Origin: Eledone cirrhosa
Lineage: Eukaryota
Length of the DNA stretch: 64,000 nt
Assembly (NCBI GenBank): GCA_964016885.1
Contig: OZ024742.1
Location: 113,708,001 to 113,772,000, forward strand
Direction: 5' to 3'
Numbering within the stretch: the first letter of the stretch is position 1; each line of letters starts with the position of its first letter. A program made the position numbers and the translations under genes. Positions 44,335 through 64,000 of the stretch are shown one piece after another. A model generated the notes under the pieces. The model ran no database searches and had not been told where the DNA came from. It saw only the letters and a program-made list of their open reading frames with translations.

Positions 44335-44527
44335 ACGAATTAAATGTGGTAAAGAATAAGATGAACCATAACGCACCAAAGTACTCAATACTTAGGGTAG
44401 TAGAGTGGTTAATAGGAACAAGTATGACACCGGCGGCAGAGCTCAAGTCGTTTCGACGCCTGATTCTGGACTGAATTAGCCTTCGAAACTGCTTGATCTC
44501 TGCCGTCGGGGTCATACTTGTTCCTAT
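44335..44527. repeat. Half-hammerhead palindrome element in (TA)n; palindrome 44412-44527
   Basis: ataggaacaagtatgacaccggcggcagagctcaagtcgtttcga...tcGAAACtgcttgatctctgccGTCggggtcatacttgttcctat; same family at 48657-48846 and 63930-64000. Confidence 0.88.
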
Positions 44528-44648
44528 ATATATGTATATATATATATATATATATATATATGTAAAAGTTCTATTTAAATTGTTGGGATACAACTATCAA
44601 ATATTTTTATAACTGATATAAATCACTCAACAAATATTTGGAGTAAAA

Positions 44649-44959
44649 ATACGATATTAACAAATGGAAACTATATTTATAAAACAATATTTATTTCATT
44701 ATACATATTTCAAGGACACCAAGTTAAATTATGGTGTGTTTTCATCAGATAAAATACAATATAGATCAGTTTTATTAATAAATATTTGTAAATGCTATCC
44801 GGGAGCTTCCAATAGTATGTCAATATTTACTTATAAAACTGATCTATATTGTATTTTACCTGATGAAAGCACACCATAATTTAACTTGGTCTCCTTGAAA
44901 TATGTATAATGAAATAAATATGGTTTTATAAATATAGTTTCCATTTGTTAATATCGTAT
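44649..44959. repeat. ~310-bp palindrome with one hammerhead-like motif per arm
   Basis: Near-perfect arms; CTGATGA aagcacacca..tggtctcctt GAAA tatg TA at ~44859-44908 and its mirror at ~44701-44748. Confidence 0.85.
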
Positions 44960-44962
44960 ATA

Positions 44963-45070
44963 TGAGTGGTTAGAGAATTGGATTCGCAATCGTAAGGTTG
45001 TCAGTTCGATTCCTGGACCAGGCGATGCGTTATGTCCTTGAGCAAGACACTCTATTTCACGTTGCTCCTT
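44963..45070 (+). mobile_element. tRNA-derived SINE head (different family) with tgtccttgagcaagacact core
   Basis: gagtggttag A-box, agttcgattcc B-box, followed by a conserved SINE core motif. Confidence 0.7.
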
Positions 45071-46599
45071 CTACCTGGAGTTGCGACCGATAGATAGTAT
45101 TAGCAATTGGAAAGACCAACGGAAACATTGTTCCATCGGTCCGATTTGACGAAAGTCGATCTTTCCTTTTTTTGATATATATATATATATAGAGAGAGAG
45201 AGAGAGAGGGAGAGAAAGATATATATATATATATATATATATATATATAAGCAGCGATTCTTTGCTTAAACTTTAATCTGTTATTTTAATAAATATATAT
45301 ATATATATATATATATATATATATATATATATAAATTACTTCATATATATATATATAAATCGTTTGTTCATTAAATTTCTTGGAATATTTCTCTAAAGTA
45401 ACACAATATGTAACATATGCCTTTAGTTGAATATACAATTACCTGATATGCTGCAGGCATACATGTCCTACTTCTAGCGTACCCGATAAGCATATTCTCT
45501 ACCAACAACAAATTGTACCAACAAAAGATGTAACGTATTGTTGCATCTTGGATTGCATAAGGGAACCAATGAAATAATTTTGATGAATAAATGATTTATG
45601 TAATTTCAGCATCTGTTTTACTGTTATACTTACACTGAATCTCCATCGTAATTACCTCATTACGAATGTAGAATGCTTTCTCCTGCTTACAACTTTCTTT
45701 TACCAAAACAACTTCAACTGAACATACATGTACATGGGCTGTGTGTTTGTGATTTGTAGCGGACACATTCCATTTGGTCGAAACATTTGATGGAATTTTA
45801 TATAGCATGGTATGTTAATTACTAACAATAAAGAATAAGCTGGTGCTCAATATTTTAATATCATATCTATCACTTTTCAGTAATATTTTCTGTAGGATTC
45901 TCTTATTTAAATAATTTGATATTTAAATTACTATGATTATCGCCAATAAATCCAAAGGAAAGATAGCATATTTGGCACCAGAAATGTTCGTGGTATTTCT
46001 AACAATGTATTGAACTGACAACCCTTCATACATATGCACTTTTAACGAATGCGGGGCCAGGTTGCAGATACACACCCATATAATATTTATAAAAAAATGT
46101 TGTAAAAATAAATATTTTTTCTTATCTAATGTCTATGGGTATTATTCATGTTTCACAGAGTAATATTTTGATAAGTAAACTAAAATATAATGTGAAGAAT
46201 GAAGACAGAAAATATTGAATTCCAATTCATCAAATGAAAATAATGAAATCAAGAGAAAATAGAAATAATTATCTATTTTCAAGAGCTTTAAGAGAAAATA
46301 TGATTATTTGGAAACGATGTACTGTGTGTTGATATGTTGATTTTTAAGTGCCTAAAAACAAAATAAAAGAAGCAAACCTATACAATGGCAACTTTTAAAA
46401 AGTTGATGTCAGGACAATACTAGTACAAGGTATGAGAAAGTGAAGGTGCAGGGATACGTGCGAAAATTTGATTCATGAATATTTTATTGCTGCAATGACC
46501 TCCGGGTCACTAATTGCAAACTTTTACAGACAGCCAAGTACCTACTGTGTAATTTTCCGAAATATAACATCACTGAACAATATTGAACTAATGGATTTC

Positions 46600-47110
46600 T
46601 CTACATGATTGATGTTTAAAACCACAAGAAAAAAATATATTACTATCTAAAATTGAAGGAAAAAAAAACAAATTGTATGGCCATACAATATAGCAGGTAG
46701 ATATTAAGGGAACTGCGGTTCCCTTTCTACTATCTGCTGACAAGACCAACTTATTAGGTTGACAGGAAGGACCTCTGAGGTTCGGCAAGCTATTCATGTG
46801 TCAAATGCAGCTTTTTGAAGTAACAATCTAAATAAATGTTGCCTCTTCGAACCGATTTTGGTCAGTAGCAAAATAAAATACTAAAAGTAGAAAGTAGTAT
46901 TTTCTCTTACTTGACAGAAGGTATATTACCAGTCAGTAGTAGATAGGAGATATCTCTTGATGTTAAAATGACTTTCAGGATCACAATTATTTTCTAGCTG
47001 CTTTATTCTTAAAAATAAAGCAGAGACCCCTAGGAATCGTTTTTCTTTCAGGAAAGAAAATTCCGGCATTGTAATATTAGCAATGTCTTTTTCCATTAGA
47101 ATAAACATTT
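46600..47110 (-). mobile_element. Very degenerate LINE RT remnant
   Basis: Traces resembling RPISLL, Q.GF and KAFD motifs in broken frames. Confidence 0.25.
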
Positions 47111-62045: not shown

Positions 62046-62489
62046 ATTATTATTATTCTCTACACTCCTTACATCAAACTAAAATATGTTGACAATCTGT
62101 TAATGTCTTCCTTGTGAAACTTGTGGTCTTAACTAATGAATATATATGTACATATATATATATATTTGTATGTATGTGTATGTCTATGTATGGACATATA
62201 TAAATATTTGTATGTATGTGTATATATGTGTTTATGTATATATTTATATATATATATATATATATATATATATATATATATACATATACATATATATACA
62301 TTTATGTATATATATATATATGTATGTGTGTATGTTATGTGTGTGTGCGTGTGCGTGTATGTGTGTGCATGTGTGTTTATCTACTTTTATATATAATTTT
62401 TCCTTTGTTTCTTCCTTTTCCAGCCTCACTTTCATATAGATTATACTTTTGTTTTGATAATCCACTGTCAATAAATACACCAGAATGTT

Positions 62490-62550
62490 TTTCATTCCGA
62501 TGACTGAATGAAAATTGTGCCTGCTTTCAAGATACTACTGGTAAATGAAA
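62490..62550 (+). ncRNA. Degenerate hammerhead-like motif
   Basis: tttcatt CCGATGA ctgaa..ttcaa GATA ctactgg TA aatgaaa; 7-bp stem I; both core boxes mutated. Confidence 0.35.
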
Positions 62551-62855
62551 TAATTATCTAATGTTGCTTATTACATAATTATACATATATATATATATAT
62601 ATATATATATATATATATATATATATATATATATATATATATATATATATATATATATAAATATATATATATGTATATATGTATATATATATATATATAT
62701 ATATATATATATATATATATATATATATATATATATATATATATATATATATATATATATATATATATATATATAAGTTATTCCGGGTTCGATAGGGGCA
62801 ACCACAGTAAGTAAGGTACTCACTACATAGCAGAGTACACATGTTTAATATAGTC

Positions 62856-62906
62856 AGCTTCCTGAGGATTTCTCACGAATGAAACAATTCTAGTCCTGTA
62901 GAAGCT
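62856..62906 (+). ncRNA. Type I hammerhead ribozyme candidate
   Basis: agcttc CTGAGGA tttc tcac gaat GAAACA attctagtcc TGTA gaagct; 6-bp stem I. Confidence 0.7.
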
Positions 62907-63929
62907 TTTCTGTATTAAAAAAATATATATACATATGTGGGTGTATATGTGTATATTGGTGTGTATGTATATATATACATATGCGTACGCATGTGTGTGT
63001 GTATATGTGTTTGTGTGTATATATATGCATATGTATATATGTGTATATATATATATATATATATATATATATATATATATATATATATATATATCTGCGT
63101 GAGTGTTGATGTGTGTATGTATGTGAGTGTGTATGTATGTAAAACATATGGACTGTAAATATATTTACATATAGGGAGTGAATATGTGAGCTAGCATTCC
63201 CCCCCTCCCACACACACTTCCTCTCCCAAACCAATATCAACAACGAATGTTTGACAAATGTTCCAAAACTATACTTATTTTTTCTTTTTTTACGGTCATC
63301 TTAGTTTTATCAATAGGCATGTATATTATACTTCATTAAAAGCCCATTAAATTCATCTTTGATATAGAAATTTGTAGAAGATATTCATTATAAATTTAAG
63401 AGAGTTGATTCAACTATAAGAACGAATTTGAAAATCATCCTGCCATTATATACTCAGTAAAGTTCAGCTAATAACATGAAACCAGCAGGAGGGGATGTTT
63501 ACAACCACCTTCTCAAACACCATTATCTTGCACCCTCACCATTTTCTGAGTGTATATTTATAAGTGTATGTGGGGGTATGTGTGTGTGTGCGCGCGTGTG
63601 TATGCTTTAATTCCTCCAAATCTTCATAAACACTCATTGACACTACACCCCACACCACAGAAACATCTAAATCTCTCTTATATATAGTCACACATTTCCA
63701 CACAACCTGATCTCAGTTTGACAATCGCCACCGACGAATGCGAGGAAATTCTCCAACAAAGTTAACCAGGAATCTTTAAAATTTTTCCTACCGAAGTTAA
63801 GAAACAACATACTAGATCTACCAACTAATAATATTATAATATCCTAAAATTAAATCAAATTATTTAACACTACAAGTGAAGTCATTCTTTTCTTTCTTTT
63901 CATATATATATATATATATATATATGAAC

Positions 63930-64000
63930 GAGTAGTAACGCGACGGCCGAGCTCAAGCCGTTTCGATGGCTAATTCTGGACTAAAAATTCGTCCAGAATT
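63930..64000. repeat. Third copy of the 44335/48657 family, cut by the window edge
   Basis: gacggccgagctcaagccgtttcgatggctaattctggac taaaaattc gtccagaatt. Confidence 0.75.

What the first reader, a model, noticed from the sequence alone, without database searches (positions are those of the whole stretch)
44335..64000. Dispersed family of 'half-hammerhead' palindromes folded back on stem II (44412, 48735, 63940)
Seen: the consensus arm reads GAAACGGC-ttgagctc(t/g)-GCCGTC/GTA, a GAAA, 5-bp stem III and GUH cleavage triplet (individual arms carry point changes). The hairpin centre is the would-be stem II. Where CUGANGA should lie, the reverse complement of the GAAA half is found instead. The two complete copies sit between (TA)n tracts and share a one-sided ~75-bp extension. 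Inference: cDNA stalls in stem II, self-primes and copies back on itself, giving hairpin insertions that are dead in cis. They might be cleavable in trans or supply dsRNA to Dicer or ADAR.
Basis: partly seen in the sequence, partly recalled or inferred. Interest (0 to 1): 0.8.

Follow-up and report, generated by a model that had tools for sequence, protein, structure and literature searches.

The report
Stalled retrotransposon copies record ribozyme cutting
These hairpins are tens of thousands of extremely shortened, head-to-head insertions of a Penelope-like retrotransposon, likely made when two DNA copies stall inside the element's own hammerhead ribozyme and are joined end to end, and a minority stop exactly at the predicted cut site, which would be fossil evidence that the ribozyme cuts in the living animal.

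Summary
The three hairpins are real and belong to a huge family (65,985 exact arm hits in a 3.0-Gb genome). The parent is a Hydra-clade Penelope-like retrotransposon (PLE): 3.54-kb tandem units, open 784-aa RT plus GIY-YIG frame. Its hammerhead has the core UUGANAA (U3-A8), not CUGANGA, and a 58-nt stem II. The 80-nt extension is the known PLE 'tail'. Simple copy-back fails: 49 of 49 short two-armed copies pair one tailed with one tail-less arm, and the tail-less arm often reaches further. Best reading: two cDNAs from the two fixed start sites, joined end to end. Not found in my literature searches: mini-palindromes whose two arms both end exactly at the predicted cut (24 of 50 listed; 13 with untemplated letters between), likely run-off from self-cleaved RNA. 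Inverted truncated PLE copies, tails and U3-A8 cores are each already described. Cleavage, expression and editing were not tested. Interest 0.55.

The parts
44335..44527 (.). Copy 1: complete ultra-short inverted PLE insertion between (TA)n tracts
44335..44412 (-). Copy 1 tail (about 80 nt; the stretch between the two fixed 3' ends of the parent)
   Evidence: 86% match to the natural parent unit over 44329-44476; ends
44413..44472 (-). Copy 1 tailed arm: stem I 3' strand, stem III, GAAA and about 18 nt of stem II 3' strand
44473..44527 (+). Copy 1 tail-less arm: 12 nt of stem II, GAAA at 44485, predicted cut after 44507, end at TA
48657..48845 (.). Copy 2: complete insertion; tail 48657-48734 (-), tailed arm to 48792 (-), tail-less arm 48793-48845 (+), GAAA at 48804; triplet changed on the + arm
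63923..64000 (.). Copy 3, part inside the window: tail-less arm 63923-63985 (-), short spacer, start of the tailed arm (+). It runs on to window position 64128 and ends in (TA)n

Best explanation
The hairpins are extremely 5'-truncated, head-to-head insertions of a Hydra-clade Penelope-like retrotransposon in (TA)n, each with one tailed and one tail-less arm, likely made when the element's protein primes two cDNAs from two fixed internal start sites 80 nt apart, both likely stall in stem II of the element's U3-A8 hammerhead, and their ends are likely joined through a few shared or added bases. Shown: the parent, its open RT plus GIY-YIG frame, its hammerhead-shaped motif, the two fixed ends, the one-tailed-one-tail-less rule and the pile-up of arm ends. 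Inferred: two independent cDNAs, one on each target strand. Inferred: when the template RNA had already cut itself at GUC, both cDNAs ran off at that point and gave the mini-palindromes centred on the cut. The short copies are dead by-products, not a self-replicating family.
For: Parent: long copies continue upstream into one shared sequence with 3,542-nt tandem units 99.8% alike and 784-aa open frames, one 30 kb left of the window (L134). Hydra-clade motifs DKT, RWR, CxCX5C, VIY..YIG, CxxC, CxH (clade definition PMC8557442 section 11). Hammerhead fold is the minimum-energy fold in 4 of 6 natural long copies; position 7 takes all four bases in the listed hits. Stall: of 95 tail-anchored arms, 49 of 59 at risk end 10-29 nt 5' of GAAA, 1 of 10 in the next 40 nt (Fisher p 1.4e-5); summed contig depth falls about 20-fold across that stretch in one run. 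Two cDNAs: 49 of 49 short two-armed insertions are tailed plus tail-less; tail-less arm longer in 19, tailed in 9, equal in 21; in 11 the tailed arm ends before GAAA while the other enters stem II. In L134 the inverted arm matches the forward part only as two separate pieces. Cut site: 26 of 100 listed tail-less arms that differ at the cut stop there (of 1,805 hits) against 7-9 of 100 plain stops at a control place (of 552 hits); in one subfamily 24 of the first 50 mini-palindromes (258 in all) have both ends exactly at the cut, 13 with extra letters between; 7 of 7 viewed have the tailed plus tail-less form in (TA)n. These listing counts are by eye. In vitro, a lizard PLE cuts and extends both strands and starts at two internal sites that bound the tail (PMC11167929).
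Against: No cleavage assay and no RNA data. The fold is not more stable than shuffles (z 0.59, -0.45, -1.55), and 2 of 6 long copies fold otherwise. A third of long arms carry a C3-A8 mismatch, predicted weak (1,455 hits), yet the subfamily that mostly carries it (7 of 11 long arms) also has 32 double-cut loci against 101 in a U3-A8 subfamily, so this control is inconclusive. 11 of the 24 double-cut cases have no spacer and could be joins through a shared CG one base further. Many junctions share 1-10 bases, so later deletions inside longer palindromes could explain some unequal arms. Arms mostly carry the same subfamily marks (34 of 44), which copy-back also predicts. In the lizard PLE, ribozyme mutants did not change insertion and no RNA reads ended at the cut.
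Confidence: 0.75

Rival explanations
1. One reading: one cDNA stalls in stem II, folds back, primes on itself and copies back.
For: Arms usually share subfamily marks (34 of 44). Junctions often share 1-3 bases. 34 of 60 mini-palindromes join through the self-complementary stem III or its palindromic loop. Cases with a longer or equal tailed arm (30 of 49) fit.
Against: Tail-less arm longer in 19 of 49; in 11 it holds sequence that the tailed arm lacks. Copy-back must stop exactly 80 nt short every time. C-run, one A or T, G-run centres leave nothing to fold on. L134 needs two templates.
Confidence: 0.08
2. Long inverted PLE insertions came first; their palindrome centres were later deleted in the genome or collapsed in assembly.
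For: Long inverted copies of 0.4-5.5 kb exist in the same listing. Shared bases at junctions. Repeat-mediated 23-nt deletions do occur inside arms.
Against: Ends pile up at two features of the RNA (stem II and the cut), not at random. Untemplated A/T sit between arms. Almost no arms end 30-69 nt upstream. The depth step also shows in short contigs of public runs (these may be the assembly's own sample).
Confidence: 0.07
3. The two-cDNA model holds, but the sharp ends at the GUC site come from an RT pause at the three-way junction or the G-run, or from another nuclease, not from ribozyme cleavage.
For: The C3-A8-rich subfamily also has such ends. One AAAAGTATG-type U3-A8 subfamily has few (1 cut against 10 other). 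PLE hammerheads are weak in vitro (PMC4209133).
Against: The peak is one base wide and falls on the predicted scissile bond, whereas the stem II stall is spread over about 15 nt.
Confidence: 0.2
4. A Tc1/mariner-type MITE with terminal inverted repeats and TA duplication that moves as a unit.
For: Palindromic, TA on both sides; about half of the 30 best hits to copy 2 share one centre (chosen for likeness to copy 2).
Against: Centres and arm lengths vary freely, the tail is on one side only, arms are continuous with a PLE unit, and single arms occur.
Confidence: 0.02

Closest known systems
Hydra-clade PLEs (Craig et al. 2021, PMC8557442; passages, section 11, supplement files S1-S2 and alignment excerpts read)
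   Same: C-terminal GIY-YIG, DKT, CxCX5C linker, CxxC and CxH, (TA)n target, partial tandems, inverted 5'-truncated copy, one-sided tail. One listed family has an inverted truncated 5' copy; one is from Octopus bimaculoides.
   Different: The Hydra hammerheads in file S2 all start CUGA with stems II of 3-7 bp; this one is UUGANAA with a 58-nt stem II. Unit 3.54 kb (theirs generally under 3 kb), tail 80 nt (30-40 given), RWR for RWK. The octopus family listed there has a different hammerhead.
Minimal hammerheads of Cercyon PLEs in Schistosoma (Cervera and De la Pena 2014, PMC4209133; parts 1-2 of 4 read)
   Same: U3-A8 core variant (about 1,300 hits there), extra bases at the foot of stem II, pairs of motifs on opposite strands 100-700 bp apart ascribed to truncated PLEs.
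   Different: There whole motifs were counted; here about 80% of sampled arms hold only the 3' half. This motif has a full 5-6-bp stem III. They state that in vivo evidence for cleavage is absent.
Poseidon PLE of the green anole in vitro (Frangieh et al. 2024, PMC11167929; parts 1-2 of 4 read)
   Same: Two internal RT start sites that bound the tail, AT-rich target, both strands cut and extended, predicted dimer, protein-assisted hammerhead.
   Different: Second-strand and joining steps were left open, and no RNA ends at the cut were found. The insertions here show the joined products and ends at the cut.
L1 twin priming (recalled, no call)
   Same: Two cDNAs primed from the two target strands and joined through short homology give an inversion.
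   Different: In L1 the two cDNAs copy different, non-overlapping parts of one RNA. Here both copy the same stretch, so two templates or two tandem repeats are needed, and the product is a palindrome.
Non-LTR retrozymes (10.64898/2026.07.22.740005; part 1 of 5 read)
   Same: Non-coding, PLE-derived, type I hammerhead.
   Different: Retrozymes are head-to-tail tandem units with whole ribozymes; these are head-to-head half-ribozymes.

Membership tests
Hydra-clade PLE (parent) | Single ORF with RT and C-terminal GIY-YIG endonuclease | tested here: met
   784-aa open frame, FDI/FDV/YRDD then VIY..YIG at 658. Our Pfam scan gave 0 families; the best relative carries PF01541.
Hydra-clade PLE (parent) | DKT, RWK, CxCX5C linker, CxxC and CxH | tested here: met
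   DKT 184, RWR 104 (R for K), CxCX5C 639, CxxC 737, CxH 765 (definition)
Hydra-clade PLE (parent) | (TA)n target, tandem pLTRs, inverted truncated copy, tail | tested here: met
   92 of 95 tails end in TA; tandem units and L134 layout
Hydra-clade PLE (parent) | Canonical hammerhead in the pLTR | tested here: not met
   U3-A8 or C3-A8 core and long stem II; a variant motif sits in the expected place. The paper reports this trait but defines the clade by protein.
Hydra-clade PLE (parent) | Placement in an RT tree | not tested
   No named reference proteins were held as tool sequences; compared by eye with the paper's alignment lines
Type I hammerhead ribozyme (parent motif) | Three stems round the core with GAAA and NUH | tested here: met
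   Minimum-energy fold in 4 of 6 natural copies; alignment
Type I hammerhead ribozyme (parent motif) | Watson-Crick pair between positions 3 and 8 | tested here: inconclusive
   U3-A8 2,784 hits (one variant not counted), C3-A8 1,455, C3-G8 8, U3-G8 22
Type I hammerhead ribozyme (parent motif) | Self-cleavage | not testable with these tools
   Indirect only: arm ends at the predicted bond
Type I hammerhead ribozyme (short hairpin copies) | Both halves of the core present | tested here: not met
   The three window copies and 79 of 93 sampled arms end before or within the 5' core
Tc1/mariner-type MITE | Fixed length and interior between symmetric terminal repeats | tested here: not met
   Variable centres and arm lengths, one-sided tail, PLE parent

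The most novel reading that the evidence does not exclude
This genome holds a record of about 50,000 PLE insertion events that reads out the mechanism: a dimeric PLE protein starts two cDNAs at two fixed sites on opposite target strands and the ends are joined head to head; the folded hammerhead is the main roadblock; and hundreds of insertions were copied from RNA already cut by a U3-A8 hammerhead, direct evidence of PLE ribozyme cleavage in a germ line. Cutting would abort insertion rather than aid it, which could explain why mismatched C3-A8 cores spread. The by-product is tens of thousands of ready-made 110-nt hairpins for ADAR.
Probability: 0.5. Interest if true: 0.72.

Novelty: new variant of a known kind. 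Interest (0 to 1): 0.55.

Why it matters
How PLEs make their inverted repeats and tails, and whether their hammerheads cut in vivo, are stated as open in the papers read (PMC8557442, PMC4209133, PMC11167929). This family gives countable answers from genomic DNA alone and a young, 99.8%-identical element with an open frame for bench tests. It also warns that such hairpins look like MITEs to annotation tools and are missed by CUGANGA-based searches.

Tried and rejected
CTGANGA upstream of the arm: 53 hits, read as chance junctions with unrelated or inverted sequence (30 viewed). CTGANGA before the mirror-image stem strand: 0 (wrong strand, as the parent later showed). Rfam: no match. Pfam on the parent protein: no match. 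Naiad parent considered because of (TA)n; rejected, the endonuclease is C-terminal. RNA runs: no RNA holder listed, so expression and editing are untested. Contig depth is too coarse to show the cut-site peak. C3-A8 subfamily as a natural dead control: inconclusive. The control place was partly spoiled by stem III repeats, so one search was added. The paper on U3-A8 activity (PMC1986816) is not held. Two references were dropped from the arm-mapping set (one with an insertion, one short). Samples are the first places on contig C1, not random draws. The host looks like an octopus (3.0 Gb, TA/CA microsatellites); this was not established. Literature searches for prior reports; none of the papers opened describes cut-site mini-palindromes or the stem II stall; subscription papers, Repbase and bioRxiv supplements were not seen.
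Full report
Observation. Copy 3 runs past the window and is complete, with the extension on its right; it is the same object reversed. The genome is 3.0 Gb. An 18-letter arm word has 65,985 exact hits and a 17-letter extension word 48,554, with 0 for reversed controls, so there are at least about 48,000 insertions.

Parent. Long copies continue upstream into shared sequence. Natural tandem arrays have a period of 3,542-3,543 nt, 99.8% identity and open frames of 784 aa; one lies 30 kb left of the window (L134). 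The protein has RT motifs followed by a GIY-YIG domain, with DKT, RWR, CxCX5C, CxxC and CxH. These are the marks of the Hydra clade of Penelope-like elements, which insert in (TA)n (PMC8557442 section 11). 2,022 relatives at E 1e-50 or better were found; the best 120 are 38-53% identical and nearly all unnamed. No tree was built. The extension lies between two fixed 3' ends 80 nt apart, both followed by (TA)n. It is the PLE tail, and it lies just 5' of the first ATG of the next unit. An inverted 5'-truncated copy plus a one-sided tail is the described PLE layout.

Ribozyme. Searches for CTGANGA gave only chance junctions. The parent has UUGANAA 58-61 nt upstream of GAAA, preceded by a C-run that pairs with the G-run after GUC. 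Four of 6 natural copies fold into a type I hammerhead as their lowest-energy form, though not more stably than shuffles. Position 7 varies freely among listed hits. Counts: U3-A8 2,784 (one subfamily variant not covered), C3-A8 1,455, G8 30. U3-A8 cores and opposite-strand motif pairs are already reported for Schistosoma PLEs (PMC4209133). The Hydra hammerheads in the clade paper's file S2 all begin CUGA.

Where arms end. I took every exact arm hit in the first 11.2 Mb of C1 (93 arms, 71 insertions) and a tail-anchored set (95 arms, partly the same loci). In the second set, 49 of 59 arms that pass position 10 end 10-29 nt 5' of GAAA, in the 3' strand of stem II; only 1 of the remaining 10 ends in the next 40 nt (p 1.4e-5). 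Summed contig depth in one public run falls about 20-fold over the same stretch (a rough measure).

How arms are joined. All 49 short two-armed insertions have one tailed and one tail-less arm (one further pair scored tail-less twice was part of a long copy; 14 arms were long and 7 had no partner). The tail-less arm reaches further in 19, the tailed in 9, and 21 are within 3 nt; one search gives 26, 15 and 26 of 67. In 11 of 49 the tailed arm ends before GAAA, four times inside the tail, while the other arm enters stem II. A tail-less arm cannot be copied from a tailed cDNA that lacks its sequence, and a tail cannot be copied from a tail-less one. In L134 the inverted arm matches the forward part only as two separate pieces. 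Junctions mostly share 0-3 bases; some have added bases. The simplest reading is two cDNAs, one from each fixed start, on opposite target strands, joined at their ends. This matches the in vitro behaviour of a lizard PLE, which cuts and extends both strands and starts at the two tail boundaries (PMC11167929). Arms mostly carry the same subfamily marks (34 of 44), so both cDNAs likely come from one source locus. Later deletion may account for some unequal pairs.

Ends at the cut site. Among tail-less arms that differ right after the G-run, 26 of 100 listed stop there (1,805 hits), against 7-9 of 100 plain stops at a control place (552 hits): about 470 against 40-50. Of 60 mini-palindromes, 18 have both arms at the cut, 34 join through stem III or its palindromic loop, 6 are ambiguous and 2 are other. 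In one subfamily, with all centres up to 30 nt allowed (258 loci), the first 50 give 13 with both ends at the cut and 1-6 extra letters between, 11 with both at the cut and no spacer, 5 one letter off, 12 with one end at or next to the cut and 9 neither. These counts are by eye. Seven of 7 viewed are tailed plus tail-less in (TA)n. The likely cause is RT running off the 5' end of self-cleaved RNA and adding a base. Against: the no-spacer cases could join through a shared CG; the subfamily rich in C3-A8 also has 32 such loci against 101; one U3-A8 subfamily has few; and in the lizard element no RNA ends were found at the cut. I put self-cleavage at about 0.7.

Function. The short copies lack the 5' core and hold GAAA in a duplex, so they are dead in cis and poor substrates in trans. 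Since most cDNAs pass the cut site, the usual template is uncut or re-ligated RNA; cutting would abort an insertion. Whether the hairpins are transcribed, edited or diced is untested. Precedent: a palindromic repeat is the most edited family in a frog, and octopus has unusually many dsRNA-forming loci (PMC5625713, passages). A 2026 Octopus vulgaris repeat annotation lists recently active Penelope families and does not mention hammerheads or palindromes in its main text (PMC13282606, passages). Also seen: PMC6765202 and PMC3884650 (passages only).

Verdict. A new family and variant of a known kind of element, not a new ribozyme system. Each building block is in print. The stem II stall, the strict tailed plus tail-less rule and the cut-site mini-palindromes were not found in eight searches, and they make two open questions about PLEs testable. 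Interest 0.55.

Noticed in passing
window 44649-44959: A second palindrome family (138-nt arms, 96% complementary) whose arms hold a canonical CTGATGA core and GAAA, ending in TA; likely an inverted truncated copy of another PLE family.
   Followed up: partly
window 59364-62064: 220-nt inverted arms round a decayed remnant of another Hydra-type PLE, 44% identical to the parent protein over 265 aa.
   Followed up: partly
window 27418 and 27901, minus strand: Two similar hammerhead-like motifs with a canonical core, a long stem II and GAAAC, 483 nt apart in the same direction.
   Followed up: no
window 37740-37800: Weak match (81% over 32 nt) to the tail, next to a (TA)n tract; perhaps an older relative.
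   Followed up: no
genome-wide: 1,455 long arms carry a C3-A8 mismatched core, mostly in one subfamily: a predicted weak ribozyme that still spread. An A-to-I edit at position 8 would restore the pair; this is speculation.
   Followed up: partly
genome-wide (L159, L165): Many arms lack exactly the 23 nt of GAAA plus stem III, between two short direct repeats; likely RT skipping the hairpin.
   Followed up: no
window 4690-8718, 30348-32100, 35423-35896, 54545-55501, 58214-58822: Fragments that look like other LINE-type retrotransposons, judged by eye from the translations; no host gene was recognised among frames of 150 aa or more.
   Followed up: no
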